Shown: in pieces, positions 7-63,791 of the stretch
How the letters are laid out: each line of letters opens with the position of its first letter
Numbering within the stretch: the stretch's first letter is position 1
NCBI GenBank assembly: GCA_964399675.1
Contig: CAYNRK010000001.1
Coordinates: 137,221-201,220, forward strand
DNA length: 64,000 bases
DNA from: an uncultured Gammaproteobacteria bacterium
GTDB taxonomy: Bacteria; Patescibacteriota; Patescibacteriia; UBA9934; GWF2-40-263
Direction of reading: 5' to 3'
The notes under the pieces: generated by a model
Seen by the model: only the letters and a program-made list of their open reading frames with translations
Told to the model about the DNA's origin: nothing
Databases searched by the model: none
Program-made: the position numbers and the translations under genes

Positions 7-909
7 GTGCGTACATTCGTTCATTTCTTTGCAGTATCCATTCTTCTCCTCGGCCTGGTTGGTTGTACCGAGGTGATCAAACCTGTTCGTTCCGCCGGGG
101 CCATGGGTTCGGATGGTGGCGCTGCCGAGGGAGAGGGCGAGGGAGAAGGTGAGGGCGAGGGGGATGTTGTCGCTGTGGGCGTGTGTGATGTTGTGGGCGT
201 GGGCGTCGGTGTGGGGGAGGGCGAGGGAGAGGGGATTGCCGAGGGCGAAGGCGAAGGCGCTGCCGAAGGTGAAGGCGAAGGCGAAGGCGAAGGCTCTGCC
301 GAGGGCGAAGGCTCTGCCGAAGGTGAGGGCGAGGGCGAAGGCGAAGGCGCTGCCGAGGGAGAAGGAGAAGGAGAGGGCTCTGCCGAAGGTGAGGGCGAAG
401 GCGAAGGTGAAGGCGCTGCCGAGGGAGAAGGTGAAGGAGACCTCCCTGATCCGCTGCCCGACAGCTTCGTTCTTGTAGGCATCTTCGGTGGCTACCCGGC
501 GATCCAGCTCAATGTCGAGCCTTACAGCTCGGCGAACGTGCTCGGTCGGGGCTGGCTCGAGTCTGCACAGGTGCTCAACGGTGATGAGGTCGTGGTCGAC
601 CTTTTGGCCGACGTGTACCCGCCAGACACCCTGTGTGGCATTCGCCTCAACGCATCCTTCTATCACGACGCAGGGGACGTGAACCAGGACAACGAGATTA
701 TTGGCGAGCCCGAGAGCTGGCTCTGTGAGGTCATCTCACCGGGCGAGGAGAACCAGCGCTTGGTGCTCGAAGCAGCCGCCTGGAGCGAGGTCAGGGTCAA
801 CAATCTCGAATACTCCCTTGATGACATGGTGCCATACCAGGTTCCCGGCGAGGCCGGTTGCTCGGCCTTGCTCATCATCAGCGAGAATGGGCTCTGCGCC
901 CTGAACTGA
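7..909 (+). CDS. Secreted lipoprotein with an N-terminal (Gly-Glu)n low-complexity repeat region. GTG start; the product is unknown.
   Basis: Signal peptide [20 protein letters not shown] with lipobox L-V-G-C. Residues 40-140 are [14 protein letters not shown] repeats encoded by GAAGGC hexamer tandem repeats. About 60% GC. Confidence 0.5.
120..440 (+). repeat. Tandem hexanucleotide (GAGGGC/GAAGGC)n array inside the lipoprotein gene. It is likely hypervariable.
   Basis: Directly visible runs of ggcgaaggcgaaggc with periodic gctgccgag punctuations. Confidence 0.7.
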
Positions 910-1600: not shown

Positions 1601-2239
1601 TTAGGCGGCATAGGCCAGACGTTCTGGTTGACCCATGCGGATCCAGGTTTCGCGCGTTACGCGAACCTTGCAGAGTTGATCCTTGATTCGACAGTGCACG
1701 GGGCCATCAACACCGGTCTTGTCTGCAGGACAAATGCAACTGGCTATACGCACTGCATCAGGCAGTTGGCCAAAGCGGATCATTTGCATGTTATGCCGAC
1801 GACCAGTCTTGATTGCCTTGTGATTGGTCGTGGTTCCCAGGATGTTCTTGTCCTGGTGAGTTGCCAGAAGGCGGCTGTAGAGTTCGTCGCCAATTGGAAG
1901 TCCTGAAGTAGCGAATCGATATTCAGGAATCACCAGAAAAGTCCCAAGCTCATACCACATTGCACCTTGAGAATCTTCAGCAAGTTCCCACAAGACAATG
2001 CAGCCAATCACGCGGTTGCTAACCCCCCTTTTCTCCCCCCTTGAAAAGGGGGGAGAACTTCGGTCGAGTGCAATGATGACACGGTTGTCAAGTACCGTAG
2101 GTTCAAGATCATCTCGCGTCTTGGTGAGTAGGTGAGCTTCTGCGCGCGTGATTACTTCGACTTGTGTGTACCAAGATTCATCAAGTGTACACAAATCATG
2201 GCCGGACACGTAAACGATCTCCGGCTTCGGAATTGGCAT
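1601..2239 (-). CDS. GNAT-family N-acetyltransferase-like protein with a Cys-rich C-terminal region. It carries an in-frame PPF repeat insertion (SPPFSRGEKRG).
   Basis: GNAT-like core RVIGCIVLW...WYELGTFLVIPEYRFATSGLPIGDELYSRLL. AGGAG ribosome-binding site 7 nt before ATG at 2239. Repeat at 2021-2056. Confidence 0.5.
   Translation of the reverse strand: MPIPKPEIVYVSGHDLCTLDESWYTQVEVITRAEAHLLTKTRDDLEPTVLDNRVIIALDRSSPPFSRGEKRGVSNRVIGCIVLWELAEDSQGAMWYELGTFLVIPEYRFATSGLPIGDELYSRLLATHQDKNILGTTTNHKAIKTGRRHNMQMIRFGQLPDAVRIASCICPADKTGVDGPVHCRIKDQLCKVRVTRETWIRMGQPERLAYAA
2021..2056 (-). repeat. PPF palindromic repeat element, copy 1 (reverse orientation), in-frame inside the GNAT gene.
   Basis: taacccccctttTctccccccttgaaaaggggggag is the reverse complement of the CCCCCCTTTTCAAGGGGGG.CAAAAGGGGGGTTA consensus seen at five other sites. 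Confidence 0.8.
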
Positions 2240-13206: not shown

Positions 13207-13893
13207 TTAGAGCTGCGAAAGGAAGTCTTTGACTGGCAAAATTTTTAATTCAATATTTTCTTTTGTAAGTTTCTCAAGAGAGTAAGCGTTCTTTAAAAAG
13301 TAAGGGCCAATGCTGGTGCGTTTAAGTTCCTGGACATAACCACCAGTGCCAAGTTCTTTTCCAAGGTCGCGTGCAATCGCTCGGATGTAAGTTCCAGAAG
13401 AGCAATGGATTCTAACTCGCAACGGTGTTTCTGAAACCAGTTCTAAATTAAATATCGTTACCAAACGCGACTTGGCTTTAATAGGCTTTCCTTTGCGAGC
13501 AGCTTCATACATTTTTTGGCCTTTGATTTTTATGGCTGAGTAAGCCGGTGGAATTTGTTCAATCTTTCCCACAAATTGTTGTAATGCTTTTTTGATTTCT
13601 TTTTCGCCCAGGCTAAAGCCTGGGGCTACCTTTTCGAGTGTTCCGGTTCGATCGTCAGTATCAGAACTTGCACCCAACACAAACTCTGCTTCATATTTTT
13701 TATCAAGCCCAACAAGTTTTGACATCTCACGTGTTGCAGCACGTCCAATGCCAACAATAAGCAACCCTGTTGCAAACGGATCTAAAGTTCCGGCGTGCCC
13801 AACACGTTTCTCATTGGTTAAACGCCTTATGCGTGCGACCACATCATGTGAAGTCATACCATCCGGTTTGTCTGTAAGAAGAAACCCTTCCAT
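13207..13893 (-). CDS. truB: tRNA pseudouridine(55) synthase TruB, with an in-frame GPSL element (VAPGFSLGE).
   Basis: LLTDKPDGMTSHDVVARIRR...GHAGTLDPFATGLL is the catalytic Asp motif. The element is at 13605-13630. Confidence 0.9.
   Translation of the reverse strand: MEGFLLTDKPDGMTSHDVVARIRRLTNEKRVGHAGTLDPFATGLLIVGIGRAATREMSKLVGLDKKYEAEFVLGASSDTDDRTGTLEKVAPGFSLGEKEIKKALQQFVGKIEQIPPAYSAIKIKGQKMYEAARKGKPIKAKSRLVTIFNLELVSETPLRVRIHCSSGTYIRAIARDLGKELGTGGYVQELKRTSIGPYFLKNAYSLEKLTKENIELKILPVKDFLSQL
13605..13630 (+). repeat. GPSL element copy inside truB, in-frame, encoding APGFSLGE.
   Basis: cgcccaggctaaagcctggggctac is identical to the reverse complement of 60284-60308. Confidence 0.8.
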
Positions 13894-16324: not shown

Positions 16325-16456
16325 TGTCATCCCGAGCGAAGGCCCGTCAGACGGGCCGAAGCCGAGGGATCTCGAATTATTTATGCGAGATCTCTCCGCT
16401 CGCGGAGCCTGCCCTGAGCGAACGAAGTGAGTCGAATGGGCTCGGTCGAGATGACA
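16325..16456. repeat. TGTCAT-family GC-rich palindromic intergenic element (tgtcatcccgagcgaag...ggtcgagatgaca), copy 1.
   Basis: Terminal inverted repeats TGTCATCCCGAG/CTCGGTCGAGATGACA. Internal nested palindromes ggcccgtcagacgggcc and gagatctc. About 60% GC in an AT-rich context. Confidence 0.75.
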
Positions 16457-16462
16457 GTGTTT

Positions 16463-17401
16463 ATGAACACTCAAAACGTAACCATAATCGGTTCTGGTCC
16501 GGCAGGGTATACTGCTGCCATTTATTGCGCGCGAGCTGAGCTTGCGCCGCTTTTGTTTGAAGGTCGTCAGCTTGGTGGTCAGCCAGGTGGCCAACTCATG
16601 CTTACAACAGAGGTTGAAAATTTTCCTGGGTTTCCAGATGGGCTAATGGGGCCTGAGATAATGGAAAAGTTTAAAAAGCAAGCTGAGCGATTTGGAACAA
16701 AAATTATCACAGACGATATTGTTGAGGTTGATTTTTCCGCACGTCCGTTTGTACTCAAAACCAGTGATCAAGAATTCAAGTCACAGACAGTGATAATCTG
16801 CACAGGGGCTCAAGCAATGTGGCTTGGTGTGCCTGGCGAAGAAAAGTATAAAGGGAATGGTGTTTCAGCTTGTGCCACTTGTGATGGATTCTTTTTTAAA
16901 GATAAACAGGTGGTTATTGTTGGTGGTGGTGATGCAGCGATGGAAGAGGCAAATTTTCTCACCAAGTTTGCAAGTAAGGTTACTGTAATGGTCAGACGCG
17001 ATGAACTTCGAGCTTCAAAGATTATGCAAAAGCGTGCAATGGACAACGAGAAGATTGAGTTTGTTTGGAACACAGAAGTACAAGAAGTTCTGGGTGATGA
17101 GCAAAAAATGACTGGCGTGAAACTACTTAACAACAAAACAAACGAAACTTCAGAGTTTTCAGCAGACGGACTTTTTGTAGCTATTGGTCACAAGCCAAAT
17201 ACGGACATTTTTAAAGGCCAGCTTGATCTGGATAAAAAAGGATATATAACAGTTGAACCTGGAACAACCAAAACCAGCATAGAAGGAGTATTTGCAGGAG
17301 GCGATGTGATCGATTATAAATATCGCCAAGCAATAACAGCCGCTGGAACCGGATGCATGGCAGCACTGGACGCAGAACGTTGGCTGAGTTCAAGGGGATA
17401 A
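16463..17401 (+). CDS. trxB: Thioredoxin reductase.
   Basis: [17 protein letters not shown] motif, CATCDGFFF redox-active CxxC, and [17 protein letters not shown] motif. The ORF-track N-terminal extension overlaps the repeat element. Confidence 0.9.
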
Positions 17402-17411
17402 TCCGAATATT

Positions 17412-17450
17412 TCCCCCCTTTTCAAGGGGGGATTAAGGGGGGTTAGCATA
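17412..17450 (+). repeat. PPF element copy, intergenic, between trxB and the high-GC lipoprotein gene.
   Basis: ttcccccctttTcaaggggggattaaggggggttagcataa is nearly identical to 45633-45675. Confidence 0.8.
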
Positions 17451-17463
17451 ATTGCTAATTGAC

Positions 17464-19513: not shown

Positions 19514-20344
19514 ATGCCAGAAACCCCAATTCCATTTGAGAAAAGTAGAGAAGTTGAAAAAAGAAGTCTTTCTTTTGCAACAATTGAAATGATGGGTTCT
19601 AAAACAACTCAGCAAGATGCACATAGAATTAGAGAAATTGAAATAGATGGACGGCCTGCTGTTATGGCAGTTGTGGCAGATGGTCATGGACCAGATGGTG
19701 ATTTTATTGCACAACGTACATGCGAAGTTTTAACAAGACAGGATCCTGAGTTTGTGGATCCGGAATTAATAAGACAACTCTTTGAAAAAGCAGCAACAGA
19801 ATTTCAAGATTCAGACAGCGGAACAACAGCCAGTATGGTTTTTGTCTCACAAGAAAAAGCTTTGATAGGATATGTGGGCGACAGCGAGGCCTGGCTTGCA
19901 AAAAAAGATGGCAGCTCTCAAACACTTACAACACCTCACAGATATGGTAGAAACCCTAAAGAAACAGAAAGATTAGATGATTCTGGTGCAAATATATGGG
20001 GTAGTTCTGAATTAGACGATGAAAGAAAAACAACAGGACGTATTCAAGTTGCAGGACGAACGCTTGCAGTCTCTCGGTCAATTGGAGATGTGTACTATTC
20101 AGAGTTTGTTGGTTCTGAGCCAGAAATTATTGAGCAAGATTTGTCTGATAATGATAAGTTCTTAATTGTTGCTTCTGATGGGTTTTGGTATTTTTTTGAA
20201 GACAGACGCGGACAAAAGATATTAAAAGAAGTGCTAGAGTCGTCAGAAAATGCTGAACAAGCAAAAGAAAAATTTACAGAATTATTAGAACAATGGGATC
20301 TTTTTGACAATGTAACAGTCATCGTCGTAGATGTATCAAAATAA
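19514..20344 (+). CDS. PP2C-family (PPM) serine/threonine protein phosphatase.
   Basis: Metal-binding motifs AVVADGHG, GYVGDSEA, LAVSRSIGD, ASDGFW. Confidence 0.75.
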   Translation: MPETPIPFEKSREVEKRSLSFATIEMMGSKTTQQDAHRIREIEIDGRPAVMAVVADGHGPDGDFIAQRTCEVLTRQDPEFVDPELIRQLFEKAATEFQDSDSGTTASMVFVSQEKALIGYVGDSEAWLAKKDGSSQTLTTPHRYGRNPKETERLDDSGANIWGSSELDDERKTTGRIQVAGRTLAVSRSIGDVYYSEFVGSEPEIIEQDLSDNDKFLIVASDGFWYFFEDRRGQKILKEVLESSENAEQAKEKFTELLEQWDLFDNVTVIVVDVSK

Positions 20345-20346
20345 AT

Positions 20347-22827
20347 ATGCCATACAATCATTTAGAAATTGAAAAAAAGTGGCAAGATAAATGGGAAGAC
20401 TCAGGTCTCTTTCATGCCAAAGATAATTCAGACAAGCAAAAGTTTTACTGTTTGATTGAATTTCCATATCCATCAGGTGTTGGACTTCATATTGGTCATT
20501 TGCGCAGCAACACAGCAATGGACATAATTGCTCGCAAACGCCGAATGGAAGGATTTAATGTTTTGTATCCAATTGGTTGGGATGCGTTTGGACTTCCAAC
20601 AGAAAACTACGCAATCAAAACTGGTCGCAAACCACAAGATGTTACAAAAGAAAATGTTGCAACTTTTAAGCAACAACTCCAGTCAATTGGTTTTTCTTTT
20701 GATTGGTCTCGAGAAATCAACACAACTGATCCGGATTATTACAAATGGACGCAGTGGATGTTTTTGGAGTTTTACAAAGCCGGCTTGGCTTACAAAGACA
20801 AGGTACGAATTAATTGGTGTTTGTCTTGCAAGATTGGTTTGGCTAATGAGGAAGTGGTTGAAGGTAAGTGTGAGCGTTGTGGAGGGGAGATTGAAAAGCG
20901 CGACAAAGAGCAATGGATGATTGCAATTACAAAGTACGCTGATCGTTTGCTCGAAGATTTGGAAACCGTTGACTACTTGGACAAGATTAAAACTCAGCAA
21001 GTAAATTGGATTGGAAAAAGTGAGGGGGCTGTTGTGAAATTTGAAGTTCTCCCCCCTTTTCAAGGGGGGACAAAAGGGGGGTTATCAGTTGGCAAAGAGC
21101 TCGAAGTTTTCACAACTCGCCCCGATACTTTGTTCGGAGCAACCTACATGGTTCTCGCACCTGAGCACCCTTTAGTGGATCAGATTACAACCGATGAGCA
21201 ACGCGTAGCTGTTGAACAATACGTAAAAGAAGCAAAAGCGCAGACAGACATTGATCGACAAAATATTGAAAAAGAAAAGACGGGGATATTTACTGGTGCT
21301 TATGCAATTAATCCAGTTAACGAGGAGGAGATTCCAATTTGGGTAGCTGACTATGTGATGATGGGTTATGGAACAGGAGCCATCATGGCAGTTCCAGCTC
21401 ATGATGAAAGAGACTCTGAGTTTGCGAAGAAGTTCGGTCAAAAAGTTATAAAGGTTATTGCAGGCGAAACGATAGGAAAAGAAGTTTATACAGGAGACGG
21501 TAAACTTATCAATTCAAGTTTCCTTAACGGTTTATTGGTTTCGGAAGCTAAAGAAGCGATAATTGAATGGCTTGAGGAAAATGGAAAAGGAAAGCGTTCA
21601 ACAAGTTACAAACTCCGTGATTGGGTTTTTTCTCGTCAAAGATATTGGGGAGAACCTATACCTCTTGTTTTTTGTGAACAATGTGCAAAACAAGAGGTAA
21701 ATTCCAAATCACAAATCACAAATTCCAGAAATGCAGGATGGGTTCCAGTTGAGGATTTGCCAGTTGAGCTTCCTGAAGTTGAAAAGTATGAACCAACTGA
21801 TACAGGCGAATCACCACTTGCTGCAATTGAAGATTGGGTGAACACAACTTGTCCAAAATGTAAGGGTCCTGCAAAACGAGAAACAGACACAATGCCAAAT
21901 TGGGCTGGATCAAGCTGGTACTTTTTGGCTTACATTATGAAAGGCATTAGCGAGAATTACCAATTTTCAATAACCAAATACCAATCTCAATTGAAAAAAT
22001 GGATGCCGGTTGATTGGTACAACGGTGGAATGGAACACACGGTTCTTCATCTTTTATATTCTCGATTTTGGAATAAGTTTTTGTTTGACCAAGGTCATGT
22101 GCCAACCAGTGAACCTTATGCAAAACGCACAAGCCATGGATTAATTTTGGCAGAGGATGGATCAAAGATGTCAAAGTCAAAGGGCAATGTTGTAAATCCA
22201 GATGAGTTGGTAACTGAGTACGGCGCTGATGCTGTGCGACTCTATCAAATGTTCATGGGGCCATTTTCAGAGCCAGTGCCATGGAGTATGAACGGCTTGA
22301 TTGGAATGCGACGATTTTTGGAAAAAGCCACAAACCTTTCTGGTCTCGTTAAAGACACTGAATCCAAAGACGTTACAAAGTCTCTTCATCAAACAATTAG
22401 AAAAGTTACAAACGATATTGAAAAGATGCGGTTCAACACAGCTGTTTCGCAGATGATGATTTTTGTGAATCTTGTAAAAGAGCAGGGGAGTATTACAAAA
22501 GAAAGTCTTGTAACATTTTTGACAATCCTGTGTCCATTTGCGCCCCATCTTACAAACGAGCTTTATGAATCTTTGGGTGGAAAAGAATTTTTGGAAACAT
22601 TAAGTTGGCCAGAGTTTGACGAAAAGCTTGCAAAGGAAGAGTTGGTTGAAGTTGCTGTGCAGATAAATGGAAAAGTTCGAAGTTCAATTATGATCGCGCC
22701 AGAGGCTGATGAAGAAGCTGCAAAAGAATTAGCACTTGCAGACGAAAATGTTATTAAGCATCTGGACGGAAAAGAAATCAAAAAAGTAATTTACGTTCAG
22801 GGGAGAATTTTAAACCTTGTTGTCTAG
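20347..22827 (+). CDS. leuS: Leucyl-tRNA synthetase. It carries an in-frame 13-aa PPF-element insertion (LPPFQGGTKGGLS) at the entry to the CP1 editing domain.
   Basis: HIGH (PYPSGVGLHIGH), KMSKS, and editing domain TTRPDTLFGATYMVLAPEHP. Confidence 0.95.
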   Translation: MPYNHLEIEKKWQDKWEDSGLFHAKDNSDKQKFYCLIEFPYPSGVGLHIGHLRSNTAMDIIARKRRMEGFNVLYPIGWDAFGLPTENYAIKTGRKPQDVTKENVATFKQQLQSIGFSFDWSREINTTDPDYYKWTQWMFLEFYKAGLAYKDKVRINWCLSCKIGLANEEVVEGKCERCGGEIEKRDKEQWMIAITKYADRLLEDLETVDYLDKIKTQQVNWIGKSEGAVVKFEVLPPFQGGTKGGLSVGKELEVFTTRPDTLFGATYMVLAPEHPLVDQITTDEQRVAVEQYVKEAKAQTDIDRQNIEKEKTGIFTGAYAINPVNEEEIPIWVADYVMMGYGTGAIMAVPAHDERDSEFAKKFGQKVIKVIAGETIGKEVYTGDGKLINSSFLNGLLVSEAKEAIIEWLEENGKGKRSTSYKLRDWVFSRQRYWGEPIPLVFCEQCAKQEVNSKSQITNSRNAGWVPVEDLPVELPEVEKYEPTDTGESPLAAIEDWVNTTCPKCKGPAKRETDTMPNWAGSSWYFLAYIMKGISENYQFSITKYQSQLKKWMPVDWYNGGMEHTVLHLLYSRFWNKFLFDQGHVPTSEPYAKRTSHGLILAEDGSKMSKSKGNVVNPDELVTEYGADAVRLYQMFMGPFSEPVPWSMNGLIGMRRFLEKATNLSGLVKDTESKDVTKSLHQTIRKVTNDIEKMRFNTAVSQMMIFVNLVKEQGSITKESLVTFLTILCPFAPHLTNELYESLGGKEFLETLSWPEFDEKLAKEELVEVAVQINGKVRSSIMIAPEADEEAAKELALADENVIKHLDGKEIKKVIYVQGRILNLVV
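21051..21086 (+). repeat. PPF element copy inside leuS (in-frame).
   Basis: ccccccttttcaaggggggacaaaaggggggtta. Confidence 0.85.
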
Positions 22828-22830
22828 CTG

Positions 22831-22907
22831 TGTCATCTCGACTAAGGCCAAAGGCCGCACGGAGAGATCTCGTATATTCGAGGTCTCTCGGTAAGCTCGA
22901 GATGACA
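22831..22907. repeat. TGTCAT-family element, copy 2 (tgtcatctcgactaaggcc...ctcgagatgaca).
   Basis: Terminal inverted repeats. It sits between the leuS stop and the NUDIX gene start, and its right inverted repeat supplies a candidate ATG. Confidence 0.7.
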
Positions 22908-23477
22908 AAATATATGATTCCAGAGAATGCAAAAAAAGTTTTTGAGGGCGTGATATTTGATGTTTATCAATGGGAGCAAGAAATGTATGACGGAAGCTTT
23001 TCAACGTTTGAGATGCTAAAGCGACCTGGTACGGTTGAGATATTAGTTGTGACTGATAAAGGAAAAATCATGATTCAACATCAGCGGCAACCCGACAAAG
23101 ATGAGTCATTTTTGTGTCCAGTCGGTGGACGTGTAGATCCTGGAGAAGATCCTCTTACAGCGGCAAAAAGAGAAATGTTAGAAGAAACAGGATATGAAGC
23201 TGATGAATGGGAGCTATTGCATGAAGTAAATCCAATGAGTAAGATTGATTGGAAGATGTCAGTATTTATTGCTCGTAATATCAAGCAGGTGAGCGAGCAG
23301 CACTTGGACGCTGGCGAGAAGATTGATTTATTGGAAGTTGATTTTGATGAGTTTATTCAACTTGTTGATCAAGCTAAAATACGACGCATTGAACAGGATT
23401 TGCGAACCATGTGCGTTCGCGCTGTTTACGACAAAGATAAGTATCAAGAATTAAAGCAAAAAATATTTGGGGGCTAG
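22902..23477 (+). CDS. NUDIX hydrolase.
   Basis: Nudix box GGRVDPGEDPLTAAKREMLEETG. The start is ambiguous (22902 within the repeat, or 22914). Confidence 0.75.
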   Translation: MTKYMIPENAKKVFEGVIFDVYQWEQEMYDGSFSTFEMLKRPGTVEILVVTDKGKIMIQHQRQPDKDESFLCPVGGRVDPGEDPLTAAKREMLEETGYEADEWELLHEVNPMSKIDWKMSVFIARNIKQVSEQHLDAGEKIDLLEVDFDEFIQLVDQAKIRRIEQDLRTMCVRAVYDKDKYQELKQKIFGG

Positions 23478-40251: not shown

Positions 40252-40256
40252 CACCT

Positions 40257-40329
40257 TGTCATCTCGAGCTTGTCGAGAGATCTCGAAAACGCGAGATCCC
40301 TCGGCTCCCGTTGGTTGCTCGGGATGACA
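40257..40329. repeat. TGTCAT-family element, copy 5 (tgtcatctcgagcttg...ctcgggatgaca).
   Basis: Terminal inverted repeats. Confidence 0.7.
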
Positions 40330-40858: not shown

Positions 40859-40993
40859 TGTCATCCCGAGCGAAGCCGAGGGATCTCGCATATTCGAGAT
40901 TTCTCCACTCGCGGAGCCTGTCCTGAGCGAACGAGGTGAGTCGAATGGGCTCGGTCGAAATGACATTAGTAAACAGGCTCGGTCGAGATGACA
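40859..40993. repeat. TGTCAT-family element, copy 6, with a duplicated right terminus (..gtcgaaatgaca...ggtcgagatgaca).
   Basis: About 90% identical to 16325-16456 over about 110 bp. Confidence 0.75.
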
Positions 40994-44303: not shown

Positions 44304-45341
44304 ATGACTGTTTCAAAAAAGGTATTAGCTCAATATGAGATTGGAAAAGTGAAGTCAGTAAAGCCAGTTGAATCTGGTTTGGTTCATAATACGTTTGCAA
44401 TCAAAACATCTACCGGTGATTATATCATTCAAAAGCTTCATCCCATACTTTCTGATCAAGGAACAGCCAGAGATTTTTTGGCTGTGGCTGAACATCTTGA
44501 AAAGGAAGAATTTTTAGCACCCAAGTGTGTGCTTAGTAAAACAGGGAAAGTTTTAGCTCGTGAAGGAAAAGAGGTTTGGAGAATGCAAACAAAATTGTCA
44601 GGCAACACATACGACGTTATAAAGGATCTTTCAATGCTCAGAGAAGCTGGAAAAATTTATGCGCAGTTTCACAAGACAATGGACCACATGGATTATAAGT
44701 TTAAATCAAAATTGGTTTTGCACGAGACAGAGAAGATTTATAAGAAGTTTTTAAAAATTCTCCCCCTTTTCAAGGGGGAGTTAGAGGGGGTTAGTAATGA
44801 GGTTGAGTTTATAAAAAAAGAATTTCCAAAATATTTTTTGCCAAAAAGTTTGCCGCTTAGAGTAATTCATGGAGATCCAAAAGTATCGAATATTTTGTTT
44901 AAGAAGGTCCCCCCCCTTTTCAAGGGGGGGTTAGGGGGGGTTACCGCTGCTGCAATTATTGATTTGGATACTTGTAGTCGCAGTTCGATTCTGGTTGAGC
45001 TTGGCGATGCGTTTAGATCCTGGTGTGGTAATGAAGAAGATGATCCAAAGAACAGGTTTTGTCTTCGCAAGTTTCGTTCAGCTTGGTCTGGGTATAAAAA
45101 AGGCTCTGATGGGTTTTTAACAGCCAGAGAAAAAAGTTTGATTCCAAAGTGTATTGGTACAATCACACTTGAACTAGCTTGTAGATTTTTAACAGATTAT
45201 TTTGAAGATAGTTATTTTGGTTGGGACTCAAAGCGTTACAAATCCAGAAAAGAACATAACTTGGCGCGATGCCGCGGACAGATAAAAGAGTTTCAAGATT
45301 ATAAAAAAAAGCTTTCGAAAATAAGAAGAGTGGTCAATTGA
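44304..45341 (+). CDS. APH/choline-kinase-like phosphotransferase (protein-kinase-like fold), with two in-frame PPF-element insertions.
   Basis: Catalytic HGDPKVSNILF (HGDxxxxN) and IIDLDTC (DxD). Insertions LPLFKGELEGVS at 44757-44792 and PPLFKGGLGGVT at 44903-44945. Confidence 0.6.
   Translation: MTVSKKVLAQYEIGKVKSVKPVESGLVHNTFAIKTSTGDYIIQKLHPILSDQGTARDFLAVAEHLEKEEFLAPKCVLSKTGKVLAREGKEVWRMQTKLSGNTYDVIKDLSMLREAGKIYAQFHKTMDHMDYKFKSKLVLHETEKIYKKFLKILPLFKGELEGVSNEVEFIKKEFPKYFLPKSLPLRVIHGDPKVSNILFKKVPPLFKGGLGGVTAAAIIDLDTCSRSSILVELGDAFRSWCGNEEDDPKNRFCLRKFRSAWSGYKKGSDGFLTAREKSLIPKCIGTITLELACRFLTDYFEDSYFGWDSKRYKSRKEHNLARCRGQIKEFQDYKKKLSKIRRVVN
44757..44792 (+). repeat. PPF element copy (in-frame, phosphotransferase gene), first.
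   Basis: ctcccccttttcaagggggagttagagggggttagt. Confidence 0.8.
44903..44945 (+). repeat. PPF element copy (in-frame, phosphotransferase gene), second.
   Basis: gtcccccccctttTcaagggggggttagggggggttacc. Confidence 0.8.
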
Positions 45342-45374: not shown

Positions 45375-45634
45375 GTGTTAGCAAAAACAAAACAACTCCC
45401 GATTGAGAGTCGTTTCTTGTCCACCGAAGCCTCTTGGCGAAGGTGGATACATCTGAATGTTGAGATTTCGTTTCAGGCTTGCAGTGTTACTTTATCCTGT
45501 TCATCAACCTCTTTCCTGTGCAGCTATAGTTCAGATGTCTTCTGTTTGGACTAATCCAGACAGGTATCACGTGATTGCACAAGAGGGAATACTACCATAT
45601 ATAGGCGATTTTGTCAACCCCAAAGAGTCATTTC

Positions 45635-45672
45635 CCCCCTTTTCAAGGGGGGATTAAGGGAGGTTAGCATAA
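45635..45672 (+). repeat. PPF element copy, intergenic, at the left edge of the 45.7-49.4 kb high-GC island.
   Basis: tccccccttttcaaggggggattaagggaggttagcataa. Confidence 0.8.
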
Positions 45673-45719: not shown

Positions 45720-47057
45720 TTAGGCCGGGAGTTCGTAGCGGACTACGTGGAAGGTATTGTCGACTACGAACCAGCTCATCACAGCATGACCATCGACCTC
45801 AGTGAGGCGATCGAAGTCTGAGTAGAGCGGGAAGGTGCCGACCCCAGAGATCGAGTAAGGAGGCATCCTGGACCAGGAGAAGATGTCCGAAGAACCGCCT
45901 GCCCACATGGTCAATCCATCGTGGAGCCGGCGATATATGGGAATGTGTCTGGTGGTAACCGCTGGAGTGACGAGCGACTCAACGCCGTCTTCTGAGAACC
46001 ACACGACAGGTCTGGCCTGGTTTCCATCGGCTTCGTGTCCGATGATCGCGACGCCATTGGGGAGCACAACAATGTCTTCAACGGACAAGATGCGTTTGTG
46101 AGGGAGTCGGCGATTGCTGGCTGAATGCTCGCGCAGGGTGAGCGTCTTCCCATCATCTGAATGTACCCAGAACGTCCTGCCATCTTTCGCGAAGATCTTG
46201 TCATTGCGACAGAATCCATTCCCACCCATCCCATTGGGGGTATGGGAGTTCAGGTAGTTGCCATCAGTTGTGCTGACATGCAACACACCGTCATCATCAA
46301 GGAACAGGCTGTTTGGGATGATCCGATCTTCGTTCCTGAGCTTGATCACCTGACGGCCAAACAGAACCTCTTTGTAGTCTGAACAGCGATGTACAATCGC
46401 AGGAGTGTTATCGCTTCTTGCGACCTTGAGAACGGTTCGTTCGTCCTTTGCCCAGAGAACATCTTCTTCAAAGACCAAGCGGCGGTGTTCCTCACTTTGG
46501 CAGAAGACCCGCACAAACTGTTGGCGATCGTCGGATCTGTCATTTCCTGGGTCAAAGGAAACTGCACACCACTTCGAGCACCCTGCTGTCCAGAAGGTTG
46601 GCGCTTCGATCGGGGTCAGATCCAGATCGAATTCCCAGTCGCCCCAACGAACACCGAAGTGCTCAGCTTCTGCATCTGTGTAAACGAACGCCAGTTTGTT
46701 GCTTCCCTCAGGGAAGTGCGGGTACAGAAGATTGTCTGTATTGTCGATCGGTTCAGAAAGACCCGAAGTAGCTGTCCAGGTTCGAACACCCCGCTTTTGA
46801 TCCCCCACGGCACTGCAGACAAGCGCGATCGTTCCGTCGTGTGCAATGCACACGCTGTCATGGATCACGTTGACTCCTGGCGGGAGTCGAAATGCGTGCG
46901 TTACGTGCGGAGGCAGGCCGATGGGCTTTCCAGCAAGAACTTTGACCGCCTGTTCAAGTCTACCTGGACTGACCTTGCCTGGATGAGCACCAAGGTATAC
47001 AAGGATTTGCGCAAGCGCTTTTTCTCTTCGTGTTGGTCCTACTACTGGACTTGCCAT
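45720..47057 (-). CDS. Hypothetical protein (445 aa), high GC (about 58%).
   Basis: Long ORF. No motif recognised. Confidence 0.5.
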   Translation of the reverse strand: MASPVVGPTRREKALAQILVYLGAHPGKVSPGRLEQAVKVLAGKPIGLPPHVTHAFRLPPGVNVIHDSVCIAHDGTIALVCSAVGDQKRGVRTWTATSGLSEPIDNTDNLLYPHFPEGSNKLAFVYTDAEAEHFGVRWGDWEFDLDLTPIEAPTFWTAGCSKWCAVSFDPGNDRSDDRQQFVRVFCQSEEHRRLVFEEDVLWAKDERTVLKVARSDNTPAIVHRCSDYKEVLFGRQVIKLRNEDRIIPNSLFLDDDGVLHVSTTDGNYLNSHTPNGMGGNGFCRNDKIFAKDGRTFWVHSDDGKTLTLREHSASNRRLPHKRILSVEDIVVLPNGVAIIGHEADGNQARPVVWFSEDGVESLVTPAVTTRHIPIYRRLHDGLTMWAGGSSDIFSWSRMPPYSISGVGTFPLYSDFDRLTEVDGHAVMSWFVVDNTFHVVRYELPA

Positions 47058-47202: not shown

Positions 47203-47246
47203 AATTAAATTGAAAAGCCGTTCGTCACCAGGTGGTGTCGAACGGC
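47203..47246 (-). terminator. Terminator gccgttcgacaccacctggtgacgaacggc plus cttttcaattt (minus-strand sense), 3' of paralog 1.
   Basis: 8-bp GC stem with a nested cacc/ggtg stem. Duplicated at 48401-48444. Confidence 0.6.
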
Positions 47247-47278
47247 TCGTGAGTGGTTGTTGCCCTGAAAGGGCTTGT

Positions 47279-48217
47279 CTACGGCGTGGCCGCGGCCGGC
47301 TCGGGCTCGCTCGCGGTCGGGTCGCCGTTGGTCGGCTTGGCCTCGGCTTCGGGTTCCTCCGCGGTCTCGTCCGCTTCGGACTCCTTGATCTCGGGCGCCA
47401 GGTGCGCGTGCAGGTCCTCGATGCCGTAGGTGGGCGCGGCTGCGCTGAGCTCGGTGAACACGCTGCGCACGACCGTGTCGAAGATCTCGTCCTGCCGCCG
47501 CTCCCACAGCTCGTTGAGCCACTCCTGGAACTCGTGGAGCAGTGCATCGTAGTACGAGCCGGTTGGGTCGAAGCACGCGATCGGGATGTTGTGATCCTCG
47601 CGAGCCACCTGCTGGGCACGCTCGTGCTCGTGCTGGTATACCCCCATGTCTTTGTCGCTGGCGTTGGTCACCACCGTGAGCTGGTTTCGGTGGAGGCCGG
47701 TCAGCGCCTCTATCGCTCCCATCGGGCCGTTGTTGCCGACCGCGATCAGTTGCACGCCGTGTGCATCAAGGGCGCGGTCGTTGTTGAGACGATCGAAGAA
47801 GATCGCACGGATCAGCGGAACGAGCCGCTTGACCAGCGGTTCCTCCTTGCGCCAGCCGTACTCGAGCTCGCTGCTCAGTTCCTCGCGCAGATCCACGAGC
47901 GTGCTGCGCAGGGTCTCGGTCAGGAGCTCCCTGGTCGCGGCCGCGTGCTTCTTCCTGGGCGAGCGTACGAACACCATGCCGGCGTCCACGCTGTGATGCA
48001 GCTCGTAGAGGCCGCTACAGAGCGGACCGTCGTGATCCACGACTGCGGTTTCAGCCAACACCTGGATCCTGCCCGTGGTGGCTGAGTTGAACATGGGTGT
48101 GGTGTTGCACACCACGACCACGCCGGTGTCGGCATCAATCTCCACGCAGATCCGTACTGCCGCGGTGATCGGGTCTGCTGCCACGTCCCTCAGTGACTGT
48201 GTGCTAACGTCTGACAT
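47279..48217 (-). CDS. Hypothetical protein, paralog 1 (312 aa). Acidic Pro/Glu-rich C-terminal tail. High GC (about 63%).
   Basis: About 35% identity to 48475-49401 over the N-terminal 230 aa. The last ~75 aa are nearly identical (FDTVVRSVFTELSAAAPTYGIEDLHAHLAPEIKESEADETAEEPEAEAKPTNGDP). Confidence 0.5.
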   Translation of the reverse strand: MSDVSTQSLRDVAADPITAAVRICVEIDADTGVVVVCNTTPMFNSATTGRIQVLAETAVVDHDGPLCSGLYELHHSVDAGMVFVRSPRKKHAAATRELLTETLRSTLVDLREELSSELEYGWRKEEPLVKRLVPLIRAIFFDRLNNDRALDAHGVQLIAVGNNGPMGAIEALTGLHRNQLTVVTNASDKDMGVYQHEHERAQQVAREDHNIPIACFDPTGSYYDALLHEFQEWLNELWERRQDEIFDTVVRSVFTELSAAAPTYGIEDLHAHLAPEIKESEADETAEEPEAEAKPTNGDPTASEPEPAAATP

Positions 48218-48400
48218 CTTAGCCCCTATGTTTCAGTATTGGCGAGAGACCATCCAGGTTTGCCAGGTTCCTGGAATAGAAACGGACATAGTTGTCCGCA
48301 ACGAACAGAATATAGCAGAGATTTGGGCGGATGTCAATGGTTGAACTGAGCATATTTAACTAAAGAATTGAGAGATTTTGAGAGTAATTACTTAAATTGA

Positions 48401-48444
48401 AAAGCCGTTCGTCACCAGGGTGGTGTCGAACGGCTCGTGTGTTG
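48401..48444 (-). terminator. Duplicate of the 47203-47246 terminator, 3' of paralog 2.
   Basis: Same hairpin, with one extra G. Confidence 0.6.
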
Positions 48445-48474
48445 TCGTTGCCCTGAAAGGGCTTATAGCTCAGG

Positions 48475-49401
48475 CTAGCCCGGCGAAGCGGCGGTCTCGG
48501 CCTCGGGCTCGCTCGCGGCTGGGTCGCCGTTGGTCGGCTTGGCCTCGGCTTCGGGTTCCTCCGCGGTCTCGTCCGCTTCGGACTCCTTGATCTCGGGCGC
48601 CAGGTGCGCGTGCAGGTCCTCGATGCCGTAGGTGGGCGCGGCTGCGCTGAGCTCAGTGAACACGCTGCGCACGACCGTGTCGAACAGGGTCGGAGCGTGC
48701 TCGACCCAGAGCTCGTTCAGGTAGTTCTGGAACTCGCGGAGCAGCGCGTCGAAGTACGTACCGGTCGGGTCGAAGCAGTGCACTGCGATGTTGTTGTTCT
48801 CGACCACCTCGCTCGCACGTCGCTTCTGTGCCTCGCGTGCCTGGCTGCTTCCGCATTCGCAGCCGGGAGGGCAGCCGCCCTCGAGCATCGCCATGATGCC
48901 TTCGGGGCGACCCTGACCCACGGCCACGAGCTCGATCGCGTTCCTGTTGAACGGCCGCCCTTCCTTGATGCGGTCGAAGATCACGCGTCGCAGCTGGCCG
49001 GGCAGCCACTCGAGCAGCCGTTCTTCGCTGACCCACCAGTCGGTGAGCTCTTGGGCGAGCTCGGCGTGCAGACCGGGCAGCAGGCTGATGACCAGTCCGG
49101 TCAGCATCTCTCTGGTGCTGGCCGCGTGCGTCTTCCTGGGTCCCTGGATGAACACGATGCCACCCTCGATGCTGTACCGCATCGTGTAGTCGCCGCTGCA
49201 GAGCGGAGCCTCGTGCTGTCCGGCCTCTCGTGTGAGCTTGTCCGTGATCTTGTCCGCGGTCGACCACGCCATTGCTGGCTCGGTGGCCACAACCACGACC
49301 TCGCGTCCTTCGGCCCTGACCCTGAAGGTCAGCTGCACGCAAGCGTGGATCGGTTCGTCAGCGACCTCTCTGGGGCTGGGGAAGCTGATGTCTATCGACA
49401 T
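48475..49401 (-). CDS. Hypothetical protein, paralog 2 (308 aa).
   Basis: See paralog 1. It contains a Cys cluster GGCPPGCECGSS that is absent from paralog 1. Confidence 0.5.
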   Translation of the reverse strand: MSIDISFPSPREVADEPIHACVQLTFRVRAEGREVVVVATEPAMAWSTADKITDKLTREAGQHEAPLCSGDYTMRYSIEGGIVFIQGPRKTHAASTREMLTGLVISLLPGLHAELAQELTDWWVSEERLLEWLPGQLRRVIFDRIKEGRPFNRNAIELVAVGQGRPEGIMAMLEGGCPPGCECGSSQAREAQKRRASEVVENNNIAVHCFDPTGTYFDALLREFQNYLNELWVEHAPTLFDTVVRSVFTELSAAAPTYGIEDLHAHLAPEIKESEADETAEEPEAEAKPTNGDPAASEPEAETAASPG

Positions 49402-49547
49402 GGTGTCTTTGCCTTTTCATCTTGTATTGGCAGGTTGGTCTAGGCTTGCCAATAACCTAGACAAGAAGCAGACGAACATGTCCGCAACGCACGAATGCTA
49501 CAGCAAAACACATAAATTGTCAAGGGTTTCTGGAATAAAAAATTTGC

Positions 49548-59700: not shown

Positions 59701-60387
59701 ATGACAGAACAAACTATAAAAACAGCAACCAAGAAAGGTTCAGCCACCAAGACCAAAAAGAATGAAAAAGGTAAGGGGCGTGGGCGCGGACGTGGCAAGG
59801 GCCGAGGGCGTCAAAGAGAAGTTCGAGAGTTCGAACAAAAGATTTTGGATTTATCCCGTGTTACTCGTGTGACTGCTGGTGGAAAGAGAATGTCATTCCG
59901 CTGTGCTCTTGTTATTGGAGATAAAAAAGGACGTGTTGGACTTGGTGTTGCAAAAGGAGCTGATGTGCAAATTTCAGTTGAAAAAGCTTATAAGCAAGCC
60001 AAACGAAATTTGGTAACAGTGCCACTTGTTAATGAAACAATTCCACATCTGATTTGGGTAAAGTATGGTGCAGCTCTTGTTATGCTCAAACCAGCTCCAG
60101 AAGGAACCGGGCTTAAATCTGGTGGTGCAATGCGTATGGTGCTTGAGTTTGCTGGTGTTCCAAATGCTGTGACCAAGATTGTTAATTCAAGTAATAAGAT
60201 TAATATCGCTCGGGCAACATTAGAGGCGATTAAGCAGTTGAGGAAGGTGGAAAAGGTGGAGAAGGTAGAAAAGGGAGAAAAGGTAGCCCCAGGCTTTAGC
60301 CTGGGCGAAGAAGTCAAAGAGGTCAAAGAAGCCCGAGAGGTGAAAGAGGTTGAAGAGGTTAAAGAAGCGAAGGAGAAAGTAGAATAA
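59701..60387 (+). CDS. rpsE: 30S ribosomal protein S5 with a basic N-terminal extension and a (KVE)n/KE-rich C-terminal tail. The tail contains an in-frame GPSL element (VAPGFSLGE).
   Basis: S5 core REFEQKILDLSRVTRVTAGGKRMSFRCALVIGDKKGRVGLGVAKG. Tail KVEKVEKVEKGEKVAPGFSLGEEVKEVKE. Confidence 0.85.
   Translation: MTEQTIKTATKKGSATKTKKNEKGKGRGRGRGKGRGRQREVREFEQKILDLSRVTRVTAGGKRMSFRCALVIGDKKGRVGLGVAKGADVQISVEKAYKQAKRNLVTVPLVNETIPHLIWVKYGAALVMLKPAPEGTGLKSGGAMRMVLEFAGVPNAVTKIVNSSNKINIARATLEAIKQLRKVEKVEKVEKGEKVAPGFSLGEEVKEVKEAREVKEVEEVKEAKEKVE
60284..60308 (-). repeat. GPSL element copy (reverse orientation) inside the rpsE 3' tail.
   Basis: The reverse complement is cgcccaggctaaagcctggggctac, identical to the truB copy. 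Confidence 0.8.
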
Positions 60388-63002: not shown

Positions 63003-63785
63003 ATGGCTCTAACTAAAACAAAAAAGGAAATAGAATCGCTTCGCAAAGGCGGAGCACTTTTATCGTCTGCTCTTAAAGCGGCAATTGATACTGTTGGTAT
63101 TGGTGTGTCAGTAAAGGATGTTGATGCAATTGCCGAAAAAGTGATTCGTGATGGCGGCGGCACACCTTCTTTTAAAGGGTATAAAGAAAAAGAAGCAGAT
63201 CCACCATTTCCAAGCACTGTTTGTGTTTCAGTAAACGAGGAGGTTGTTCATGGTTCAGGCCAGAGAGACATTGTTTTAAAAGAAGGTGATGTTGTTGGTT
63301 TGGATATTGGTTGTTGGTATGAAGGGTTGTGTACTGACATGGCGGCAACTGTTCCGGTTGGAAAGGTGGGTGATGATGCGCTTAAGCTTATGGAAGTAAC
63401 AAAGCAAGCTCTTCTTGCCGGGGTTGCAGCGGCAAAAGTAGGTGGAGATATTAAAGATATATCGCAAGCTGTTGAAGGTGTTGTAAAACCCAATGGCTAT
63501 GGAATTGTTCAAGCTCTTGTTGGGCACGGTGTTGGTCACGAAGTTCATGAAGCTCCTCATGTTCCAAACTTTATTTCAGATCGTTATCCAAATGTTGAGA
63601 TTTTGAACGGCATGGTTCTTGCGATTGAGCCAATGCTTGGTCTTGGGGGTGATCACAGAATAGAAACAACAGATGATTGCTGTCGGGGCATCTTGATGAA
63701 AGACAGGACAACTGGTTCGCATTTTGAAGTCACAATTGCTATTACAAACGAGGGCACAGAAATTTTAACACCATTGCCAGTTTAA
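63003..63785 (+). CDS. map: Methionine aminopeptidase type I.
   Basis: Pita-bread fold. Metal ligands D..D..H..E..E in conserved positions. Confidence 0.9.
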   Translation: MALTKTKKEIESLRKGGALLSSALKAAIDTVGIGVSVKDVDAIAEKVIRDGGGTPSFKGYKEKEADPPFPSTVCVSVNEEVVHGSGQRDIVLKEGDVVGLDIGCWYEGLCTDMAATVPVGKVGDDALKLMEVTKQALLAGVAAAKVGGDIKDISQAVEGVVKPNGYGIVQALVGHGVGHEVHEAPHVPNFISDRYPNVEILNGMVLAIEPMLGLGGDHRIETTDDCCRGILMKDRTTGSHFEVTIAITNEGTEILTPLPV

Positions 63786-63791
63786 AGGCCC

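What the first reader, a model, noticed from the sequence alone, without database searches (positions are those of the whole stretch)
21051..21086. PPF element inserted at the catalytic-core/CP1 editing-domain junction of leuS
The 13-aa insertion LPPFQGGTKGGLS sits between ...GAVVKFEV and ELEVFTTRPDTLFGATYM. This is the hinge where the editing domain leaves the Rossmann fold. An essential aminoacyl-tRNA synthetase tolerating a repeat-derived loop here is notable. It also gives a convenient natural marker for dating the insertion.
Basis: partly seen in the sequence, partly recalled or inferred. Interest (0 to 1): 0.55.

Follow-up and report, generated by a model that had tools for sequence, protein, structure and literature searches.

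The report
Hairpin repeat inserted inside leuS gene
A short GC-rich hairpin repeat scattered through this Uhrbacteria-like (candidate phyla radiation) genome sits in-frame inside the essential leucyl-tRNA synthetase gene, adding a floppy 11-residue loop at a spot where related bacteria carry similar inserts.

Summary
leuS (20347-22827, +, 826 aa) contains LPPFQGGTKGGLS, encoded by a GC-rich hairpin repeat. The window holds five other copies, and one of them is 96% identical over 45 nt.

Against 108 homologues the net gain is 11 codons (33 nt, 21051-21083). Removing them restores the modal 17-aa loop. The identical gene occurs on 13 contigs from at least three assemblies, so it is not an assembly error.

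An AlphaFold model (pLDDT 87) puts the insert at the disordered tip of the first beta-hairpin inside the CP1 editing domain. That is 8 residues before the TTRPDT editing motif, and it is not the hinge itself.

Three of the four intragenic copies in the window are net in-frame insertions relative to homologues. All three reading frames are used, so the unit is DNA, not a peptide module.

The same LeuRS codon boundary carries lineage-specific variants of this element in at least five separate phylogenetic positions. In other relatives it carries whole inserted domains, so it is a permissive hotspot.

Best reading: a selfish or neutral dispersed palindromic element, translated and tolerated. It resembles Rickettsia palindromic elements and yeast mitochondrial GC clusters but belongs to neither. 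How it moves is unknown.

The parts
20347..22827 (+). leuS, leucyl-tRNA synthetase, 826 aa, intact host gene
   Evidence: ORF. Pfam: PF00133 at 11-221, PF13603 editing domain at 220-410, PF08264 at 676-791. T. thermophilus LeuRS 1h3n matches at E=4e-223. The AF2 model matches 2bte_A at TM 0.83 and 4aq7_A at TM 0.86.
21051..21083 (+). Net 33-nt (11-codon) insertion: C6-TTTTCAA-G6-ACAAAA-G6-TT. The boundary can slide by 1 nt.
   Evidence: The loop is 28 aa against a modal 17 aa, and there are 11 gap positions against T. thermophilus LeuRS. The same 11-aa net insert of the sister copy appears in ORF 1601-2272 against 21 homologues.
21043..21087 (+). Full stretch of repeat homology, including the flanks GAAGTTCT and ATCA. 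It encodes E233-S247.
   Evidence: the repeat finder I3: 45 nt, 96% match to 2017-2061 on the opposite strand.
21050..21070 (+). Perfect hairpin: arms TCCCCCCTT (21050-21058) and AAGGGGGGA (21062-21070), loop TTC
   Evidence: Read directly from the sequence. The MFE structure has a 9-bp stem. The fold energy is not better than composition-matched shuffles (z = -0.08).
21076..21081 (+). Third block, a second G6 run. It is conserved in all family members.
   Evidence: Its role is unexplained.
21016..21051 (+). Codons for beta-strand 224-235 (linker plus first CP1 strand), upstream of the insert
   Evidence: DSSP on the AF2 model.
21097..21129 (+). Codons for beta-strand 251-256 and the T-rich editing motif TTRPDT (256-261)
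   Evidence: for the strand. F255-T261 are invariant in 71 sequences.
2017..2061 (-). Closest sister copy, in-frame inside ORF 1601-2272 (PPFSRGEKRGV)
   Evidence: It is an 11-aa insertion against homologues.
17409..17451 (+). Intergenic copy, 8 nt after the stop of the thioredoxin-reductase-like gene
44757..44799 (+). Copy inside the APH-family kinase ORF 44304-45341 (LPLFKGELEGVS)
44907..44949 (+). Second copy inside the same kinase ORF (VPPLFKGGLGGVT). It is an insertion against most homologues.
45630..45672 (+). Intergenic copy, 98% identical to the 17409 copy

Best explanation
A short, non-autonomous, GC-rich palindromic dispersed repeat has been inserted into leuS. Its form is C-run, TTTTCAA loop, G-run, A-rich spacer, second G-run. 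The net gain is 33 nt.

The insert is a multiple of three and free of stop codons, so it is simply translated. It adds 11 mostly Gly/Pro residues to the tip of the first beta-hairpin of the CP1 editing domain. That loop is solvent-facing and structurally permissive, and the enzyme keeps all its catalytic and editing motifs.

The insert is best seen as tolerated selfish or neutral DNA, not as an adaptation. Selection acts as a filter: only copies that land in permissive loops, in-frame and without stops, survive in essential genes. This filter, possibly helped by a sequence preference of the element, explains why the same LeuRS loop carries related elements in several other Patescibacteria lineages.

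**Shown:** repeat origin, insertion, reality of the sequence, loop location, recurrence at the site.
**Inferred:** that it is translated, that it is neutral, and how it moves.
For: **Repeat origin**
- Six copies lie in the 64-kb window. The leuS copy is 96% identical over 45 nt to the copy at 2017-2061. There were 0 matches in 100 shuffles.

**It is an insertion**
- The loop is 28 aa against a modal 17 aa in 108 homologues, and there are 11 gap columns against T. thermophilus LeuRS.
- Removing 33 nt restores a 17-aa loop.

**It is real**
- The identical protein is on 13 contigs. Three loci from different assemblies are 100% identical to the window over 9.5-22.5 kb. A variant with A62T also carries the insert.

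**The gene looks functional**
- All invariant columns of a 71-sequence alignment are retained.

**Location in the structure**
- The AF2 model has pLDDT 87 and pTM 0.83. Its only long segment with pLDDT below 50 is 239-248, between strands 224-235 and 251-256.

**The unit is DNA, not a peptide**
- Intragenic copies use all three frames: PPFQGG, PLFKGE and PPFSRG.
- Read from the sequence: the leuS copy is stop-free in all three sense frames, whereas the intergenic copies are open in only one of three.

**Other in-frame insertions of the family**
- ORF 1601-2272 and the APH-family kinase.
- In metagenome loci the hosts include two further LeuS genes, MoeA, UvrC, RuvC, Lgt, a PALP enzyme and an MBL protein.

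**The site is a hotspot**
- The same codon boundary carries lineage-specific variants in P0008, P0009, P0082, P0088, P0117 and L181.
- Carriers fall in at least 5 separate places on an NJ tree.
- The same loop hosts whole domains in other relatives.
Against: - There is no direct evidence of translation: no proteomics or transcript data.
- No close relative lacks the insert, so the empty site is inferred from loop lengths only and the boundaries are uncertain by a few nucleotides.
- No transposase, target-site duplication or other signature of mobility was demonstrated. The GTT...GTT that flanks the 39-nt block is not reproduced at other copies.
- The low pLDDT in the insert is partly expected, because the alignment has gaps there.
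- Neutrality is assumed. The insert lies only 8 residues from the editing-site T-rich motif, and its position relative to tRNA was not examined.
- The hairpins stay perfect, with a compensatory change in L199. That could indicate selection on structure rather than recent arrival.
Confidence: 0.82

Rival explanations
1. One ancient insertion, not recurrent ones. The element entered the LeuRS loop once in an ancestor of these Patescibacteria. It has since been kept in some lines and precisely lost or overwritten in most. Gene conversion from other genomic copies keeps each lineage's copy looking like its own family.
For: - The junction is at exactly the same codon boundary, after F-x-[V/I], in all carriers.
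- P0082, P0088 and P0117 form one clade.
- L199 has two copies identical over 47 nt within one gene, and L197 has two copies sharing loop and tail. This is the pattern expected from concerted evolution.
Against: - Carriers occupy at least 5 separate tree positions. The nearest neighbours of P0001, P0008 and P0009 are all non-carriers with ordinary 17-22-aa loops, so many precise losses would be needed.
- L181 is a very distant LeuS (distance above 0.42) that still carries the TTTTCAA-loop variant.
- The residues left after removing the element differ in number between carriers (11-16 aa).
Confidence: 0.2
2. The hairpin or the loop is functional. As RNA or DNA it could pause ribosomes at the domain boundary, stabilise the mRNA, or bind a protein. 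As a peptide, the Gly/Pro loop could modulate CP1 movement or editing. Either way it would be maintained by selection.
For: - The 9-bp stem is perfect in every copy. In L199 a C-to-T change in one arm is matched by G-to-A in the other arm.
- All 4 intragenic copies in the window have the same orientation relative to the coding strand.
- The insert lies 8 residues upstream of the editing motif.
Against: - All three reading frames are used in different hosts, so there is no conserved peptide.
- Both orientations occur in metagenome hosts.
- The hosts are unrelated proteins.
- No Rfam family matches: gathering search 0 hits, best E 0.57-4.
- The fold energy is no better than shuffles for the leuS copy (z = -0.08).
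- Most LeuRS homologues work without it.
Confidence: 0.1
3. The insert is not in the mature protein. The ribosome would bypass it from GTT (V234) to GTT (V248), as at phage T4 gene 60 or the 'byp' GC clusters of Magnusiomyces mitochondria. Alternatively it would be removed from the mRNA.
For: - Identical GTT codons flank the 39-nt block, and a stable hairpin starts right after the first one.
- GC clusters of similar size are bypassed in Magnusiomyces mitochondria (PMC8811140).
Against: - The block is in-frame and stop-free, so nothing forces a bypass.
- No stop or rare codon follows the take-off codon.
- Other intragenic copies lack matching flanking codons.
- The contrast between stop-free intragenic copies and stop-containing intergenic copies argues that intragenic copies are read through.
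Confidence: 0.03
4. Assembly or sequencing artefact, or a chance resemblance of a native loop to the repeat.
For: - Homopolymer runs are error-prone.
- In the kinase gene, same-species variants differ by frameshifts in the C8/G7 runs.
Against: - The leuS sequence is identical in at least three assemblies and on 13 contigs.
- The frame is preserved.
- The 43/45-nt identity to another copy occurred in 0 of 100 shuffles.
Confidence: 0.02

Closest known systems
Rickettsia palindromic elements (RPEs; Ogata et al. 2000, 2002, as summarised in PMC10969869)
   Same: Both are dispersed palindromic repeats found intergenically and inserted in-frame into unrelated housekeeping genes. Both are translated with the host protein and are thought to sit where the fold tolerates them. 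Both occur in reduced-genome bacteria.
   Different: RPEs are about 100-150 bp, encode a conserved peptide, and are confined to Rickettsia. This element adds only about 33 nt, is read in all three frames so has no conserved peptide, occurs in Patescibacteria, and shows no sequence relationship to RPEs.
Mobile GC clusters of yeast mitochondria, including in-frame var1 insertions and Magnusiomyces 'byp' elements (PMC8811140)
   Same: Both are GC-rich palindromic clusters in a lower-GC genome (here the element is about 56% GC and the gene 40%). Both are mostly intergenic but also sit in-frame in coding regions. Both have lineage-specific, rapidly diverging loops, and both form arrays and merged forms.
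   Different: GC clusters live in a mitochondrial rather than a bacterial host. They have AG/TAG terminal repeats taken as target duplications, which were not seen here. Byps are skipped by the ribosome, whereas here read-through is the simplest reading.
REP/BIME elements and REPINs mobilised by RAYT transposases (PMC3733652, title and abstract)
   Same: Both are 20-40-nt GC-rich imperfect palindromes present in many copies. Both are too small to encode anything, so movement must be in trans.
   Different: REPs are extragenic and carry a GTAG or CGTC head. Here 4 of 6 window copies are intragenic and no GTAG/CGTC tag is present. A RAYT gene was not looked for.
MITEs and enterobacterial small mobile sequences found intragenically (ERIC, RU-1/2/3; PMC2759123, PMC2229807, titles and abstracts)
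   Same: Both are non-autonomous repeats that can lie inside ORFs and add peptide segments.
   Different: Those elements are 100-170 bp with terminal inverted repeats and, for MITEs, target-site duplications. This element is a single hairpin plus one extra G block.

Membership tests
Bacterial leucyl-tRNA synthetase (class Ia), the host gene | Rossmann-fold catalytic domain with HIGH and KMSKS signatures | tested here: met
   PF00133 and PF09334 match. L47-H48-I49-G50-H51 and K607-M608-S609-K610 are in invariant columns.
Bacterial leucyl-tRNA synthetase (class Ia), the host gene | CP1 editing domain with the T-rich motif and conserved Asp | tested here: met
   PF13603 matches residues 220-410 at E=1.5e-63. 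T256-T261 and D353 are invariant.
Bacterial leucyl-tRNA synthetase (class Ia), the host gene | Overall fold equals solved bacterial LeuRS | tested here: met
   Foldseek: 2bte_A at TM 0.83 and 4aq7_A at TM 0.86. phmmer: 1h3n at E=4e-223.
Rickettsia palindromic elements | Length about 100-150 bp with a conserved encoded peptide | tested here: not met
   The net insert is 33 nt. Three different frames are used.
Rickettsia palindromic elements | Palindromic repeat inserted in-frame in unrelated protein genes as well as intergenically | tested here: met
Rickettsia palindromic elements | Sequence homology to RPE-1 to RPE-10, in a Rickettsia host | not tested
   No RPE sequences were available for comparison. 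The host is Patescibacteria/Uhrbacteria-like according to the source names of the LeuS homologues.
REP / REPIN (RAYT-mobilised) | 20-40-nt GC-rich palindrome in many copies | tested here: met
REP / REPIN (RAYT-mobilised) | GTAG or CGTC tetranucleotide at one end | tested here: not met
   None of the six window copies carries GTAG or CGTC next to the stem (sequences).
REP / REPIN (RAYT-mobilised) | Extragenic location | tested here: not met
   4 of 6 window copies lie inside ORFs.
REP / REPIN (RAYT-mobilised) | Cognate RAYT (Y1 transposase) gene in the genome | not tested
   Only 64 kb of the genome is in hand, and the window's ORFs were not all scanned.
MITE | Terminal inverted repeats plus target-site duplication | tested here: inconclusive
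   GTT flanks the 39-nt block in leuS and ATT lies near both ends of the 17409 copy, but other copies show no consistent duplication.
Translational-bypass elements (T4 gene 60 / mitochondrial byps) | Matching take-off and landing codons with a stop or hungry codon after take-off, and an element that breaks the frame or contains stops | tested here: not met
   GTT...GTT is present, but the next codon is CTC and the block is in-frame and stop-free.
Any Rfam RNA family | Score at or above the family's gathering threshold | tested here: not met
   0 hits at gathering thresholds in the whole window. The best sub-threshold hits are 9-15 bits with E 0.57-8.6.

The most novel reading that the evidence does not exclude
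Patescibacteria may carry an undescribed, phylum-wide class of about 33-nt three-block hairpin elements (C-run, loop, G-run, spacer, mirror G-run). These elements would repeatedly colonise the same permissive loops of essential proteins, in-frame.

- **Evidence:** the first CP1 hairpin of LeuRS appears to have been hit independently in at least five lineages.
- **Possible mechanism:** insertion would be sequence-directed. The two closest copies share the presumptive target GAAGTTCT^A(G/T)CA.
- **Possible mobilising agent:** an unknown trans-acting enzyme, or template switching.
- **Possible side effect:** the elements seed homopolymer tracts that could switch genes on and off.
Probability: 0.35. 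Interest if true: 0.75.

Novelty: new variant of a known kind. Interest (0 to 1): 0.55.

Why it matters
- **Reach of the phenomenon.** 'Selfish DNA inside protein-coding genes', known mainly from Rickettsia and yeast mitochondria, would also operate in the candidate phyla radiation. Here the element is about four times smaller, and it sits in an essential translation enzyme.
- **A natural map of tolerated sites.** The first beta-hairpin of CP1 accepts anything from 11 residues to whole hydrolase or ITPase-like domains. That is useful for engineering LeuRS and for understanding how aaRS acquire new domains.
- **Annotation and phylogenomics.** Such inserts inflate loop lengths, create spurious Gly/Pro-rich 'motifs', and introduce homopolymer runs that cause frameshifted gene calls.

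Tried and rejected
1. **GTDB genome scan.** The 17-nt hairpin CCCCCTTTTCAAGGGGG was too unspecific.
2. **Rfam.** Nothing reached gathering thresholds in the window. Only chance-level hits surround the insert, including whalefall-1 at 11.6 bits against a cut-off of 37.
3. **RNA fold statistics.** The hairpin is perfect, but its energy is not better than dinucleotide shuffles for the leuS copy (z = -0.08). Folding energy is therefore not evidence here.
4. **Terminator idea for the family.** There are no terminator-like sites in 20000-23200, and no T-run follows the stems.
5. **Unoccupied target sites.** GAAGTTCTAKCA with up to 1 mismatch gave one hit, against 0.6 expected by chance. This is uninformative.
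6. **Target-site duplication.** No consistent pattern appears across copies.
7. **Literature.** Seven searches found no description of such elements in CPR/Patescibacteria in the held library. The library is incomplete, so this is weak evidence of novelty.
8. **Dating the insertion.** This is impossible at present, because no relative closer than 68% identity lacks the insert.
Full report
**1. What is in the sequence**

Window 20347-22827 (+) is an uninterrupted 826-aa ORF.
- Pfam finds the class I catalytic domain (PF00133, residues 11-221), the LeuRS editing domain (PF13603, 220-410, E=1.5e-63) and the anticodon-binding domain.
- The best solved relative is Thermus thermophilus LeuRS (1h3n, E=4e-223).
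- Nucleotides 21049-21087 read CTC CCC CCT TTT CAA GGG GGG ACA AAA GGG GGG TTA TCA, which is L235-S247, LPPFQGGTKGGLS.
One slip: three residues (VGK) separate it from ELEVFTTRPDT.

**2. The insert derives from a repeat**

- The 31-nt core with up to 3 mismatches occurs twice in the window and never in 100 shuffles.
- The repeat finder groups six copies (family D5). It reports a 45-nt, 96% match between 21043-21087 and the reverse strand of 2017-2061.
- All six copies share the same layout: a C5-8 run, the loop TTTTCAA, a G5-7 run, a 3-7-nt spacer, a second G5-7 run, then TTA.
- The first two blocks form a perfect 9-bp stem (TCCCCCCTT/AAGGGGGGA) with a TTC loop.
- The folding energy is not better than composition-matched shuffles (z = -0.08 for the leuS copy), so I do not use energy as evidence.

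**3. It is an insertion, and its size is 33 nt**

- I measured the stretch between the conserved W-I-G-K/R-S-x-G and TTRPDT in the 120 best LeuS homologues (59-68% identical; named Candidatus Uhrbacteria or Patescibacteria group where a source names them).
- This stretch is 17 aa in 44 of the 108 that could be parsed, and 28 aa here. The HMMER alignment to T. thermophilus LeuRS also shows 4+7 gap positions.
- So the net gain is 11 codons, not 13. A 33-nt insert at 21051-21083, slidable by one T, restores ...GAA GTT CT^A TCA GTT GGC..., that is FEV-L-S-VGKELEVF, exactly 17 residues. L235 and L246 are then chimeric codons.
- The sister copy behaves the same way. In ORF 1601-2272 the segment PPFSRGEKRGV is an 11-residue insertion against 21 homologues: IALDRSS|...|SNRVIGC against IAIDTQA|SNRVVGC.
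- Without an empty orthologous site, the ends remain uncertain by a few nucleotides.

**4. It is not an artefact, and the gene looks functional**

- The exact protein is on 13 contigs. Three loci from JGI 3300009374, ENA ERZ23499344 and JGI 3300009107 are 100% identical to the window over 22.5, 16.4 and 9.5 kb.
- A variant protein differing by A62T also carries the insert.
- The window protein has the consensus residue at every invariant column of a 71-sequence alignment. These include HIGH (H48, G50, H51), KMSKS (607-610), TTRPDT (256-261) and D353.

**5. Where it sits in the protein**

- An AlphaFold2 model built on that alignment has mean pLDDT 87 and pTM 0.83. It superposes on T. thermophilus and E. 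coli LeuRS at TM 0.83-0.86.
- DSSP on the model gives strands 224-235 and 251-256 with coil between them. The only long stretch with pLDDT below 50 is 239-248.
- The insert is therefore the tip of the first beta-hairpin inside the CP1 editing domain. It lies about 14 residues past the Pfam catalytic/editing boundary and 8 residues before the T-rich editing motif.
- It is not the hinge. In bacterial LeuRS the neck is the Zn-binding CP1 hairpin, with CP1 inserted after it (PMC4138327). Here that Zn motif is C158/C161/C175/C178.
- The low confidence is partly a consequence of alignment gaps. Contacts with tRNA were not examined.

**6. Behaviour of the element family**

- Four of the six window copies are intragenic: leuS, ORF 1601-2272, and two in the APH-family kinase at 44304-45341. 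All four have the C-run first on the coding strand.
- They are read in three different frames (LPPFQGG, PLFKGE, PPFSRG), so what is conserved is DNA, not a peptide.
- Read directly from the sequence, the two intergenic copies (17409, 45630) have stops in two of three sense frames (GAT TAA; GGT TAG). The leuS copy, with its ACAAAA spacer and TTATCA tail, is open in all three. This is the pattern expected if intragenic copies are translated and filtered by selection.
- A metagenome scan with the whole three-block pattern found 72 loci and 67 unique copies. Both orientations occur.
- Hosts confirmed by Pfam include two more LeuS genes (L181, L138), MoeA, UvrC, RuvC, Lgt, a PLP enzyme and an MBL protein.

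**7. The LeuRS loop is a hotspot**

At exactly the same junction (after F-x-V/I), five other LeuS proteins from the homologue list carry PPF-like peptides: P0008, P0009, P0082, P0088 and P0117. So does the distant LeuS on L181. DNA at this site was recovered for four of the five (P0082's was not fetched), plus L181. It shows the same three-block architecture with lineage-specific loops and run lengths:

| Locus | Sequence at the site |
|---|---|
| L196 | C8-TTACCAA-G7-CGA-G7 |
| L197 | C6-TTCCCAA-G6-ACAAA-G6 |
| L198 | C8-TGCCCGA-G7-CTA-G7 |
| L199 | CCCCTCC-TTTCCAA-GGAGGGG-CTA-GGGGAGG |
| L181 | C5-TTTTCAA-G5-...-G5 |

- Each variant matches other copies in its own contig. L197 has a second copy in the same gene with the same loop and tail. 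L199 has two copies identical over 47 nt.
- On a neighbour-joining tree of 744 well-occupied columns, carriers fall in at least five separate places. The nearest neighbours of P0001, P0008 and P0009 are all non-carriers.
- Independent gains are therefore more parsimonious than one gain with many precise losses. An NJ tree is crude, though, and concerted evolution could mimic recent arrival, so I give recurrent gain about 0.6.
- The same loop also holds other repeat-like peptides (IAS...PRND) and whole inserted domains in other relatives. These are alpha/beta-hydrolase, Ham1-like and DUF559-like domains, assigned from precomputed Pfam.
- This argues that structural permissiveness is a major cause of the recurrence.

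**8. How it moves is not known**

- The element is too small to encode anything.
- The two most similar copies share presumptive targets GAAGTTCT^A(G/T)CA. Copies 17409 and 45630 share ATTT^...^AGCATAA.
- This fits either a sequence-directed insertion or copying together with short flanks (gene conversion or template switching).
- No consistent target duplication, no further target-like sites beyond chance, no terminator character and no Rfam family were found.

**9. Comparison with known systems**

- Functionally it works like Rickettsia palindromic elements, which are inserted in-frame in housekeeping genes (PMC10969869). It also resembles the GC clusters of yeast mitochondria, which insert in-frame in var1 and are bypassed in Magnusiomyces (PMC8811140).
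- It fails the defining features of RPEs (size, conserved peptide), REPs (GTAG/CGTC head, extragenic location) and bypass elements (a stop after the take-off codon).
- I found no description of such elements in Patescibacteria in the held literature.
- I classify it as a new variant of a known kind.

**10. Verdict**

The single insert is probably a neutral passenger. The more interesting result is that the family repeatedly uses the same LeuRS loop.

Noticed in passing
window 44909-44943 (inside kinase ORF 44304-45341): Same-species variants of this kinase are frameshifted within or just after the element's C8/G7/G7 runs. They are P0128 (271 aa, from the ENA contig that also carries the identical leuS) and P0138 (209 aa). 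This is either real homopolymer phase variation or assembly error.
   Followed up: partly
LeuS homologues P0016, P0067, P0075, P0095, P0102, P0111, P0051 (alignment columns after window LeuS residues 236-241): Whole domains are inserted at the same hairpin loop that holds the PPF insert. By precomputed Pfam and length they are alpha/beta-hydrolase PF06821, Ham1-like PF01725 and DUF559-like PF04480.
   Followed up: partly
LeuS homologues P0004, P0012, P0044, P0050, P0053 and others (after window LeuS residues 372-380); window 22902-23477: Many relatives have a NUDIX domain (PF00293) embedded inside the CP1 editing domain. In this window a separate NUDIX gene lies immediately downstream of leuS.
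   Followed up: no
L181 2578-5199 (-); L138; L197 2240-2269; L199 6248-6268: Other LeuS genes carry several elements each.
- L181 has at least three element-bearing sites.
- L138 has one in reverse orientation after FLQFYKHA.
- P0009, P0043 and P0117 share a second hotspot after window LeuS residue 672.

   Followed up: partly
L199 5081-5125; metagenome loci L124-L195: The third block is the mirror image of the second stem arm (GGAGGGG ... GGGGAGG; GGGGGAG-N5-GAGGGGG). Also, 11 of 67 unique copies have an extra 5' C-block that makes a four-block nested palindrome. The meaning of both is unknown.
   Followed up: partly
window 22862-22908; also 16382-16468, 40256-40329, 40874-40965, 63780-63906: A different palindromic repeat family (GAGAGATCTCG...CGAGATCTCTC...GGGATGACA) has one copy in the 75-nt spacer between leuS and the NUDIX gene. 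The family includes a 92-nt perfect inverted pair at 40874-40965 / 63792-63883.
   Followed up: no
window 13599-13635 and 60277-60313: A third short palindrome (CCCAGGCTTTAGCCTGGG) is present. Peptides such as PGFSLG at insertion-prone loops of LeuS and kinase homologues look like translations of this kind of element.
   Followed up: no
window 21697-21729 (LeuS residues 451-461, EVNSKSQITNS): This is a second lineage-specific 11-residue extra segment in this LeuS. It lies at a site where relatives carry an alpha/beta-hydrolase domain. It shows no obvious repeat origin.
   Followed up: no
window 7-909 (+): An ORF with a long Gly-Glu (GEGEGE...) low-complexity tract is built from 12/18-nt tandem units.
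   Followed up: no
window 47231-49492: An approximately 1.2-kb tandemly duplicated segment is 74-98% identical between its parts. It lies next to the ORF at 45720-47057 (-).
   Followed up: no
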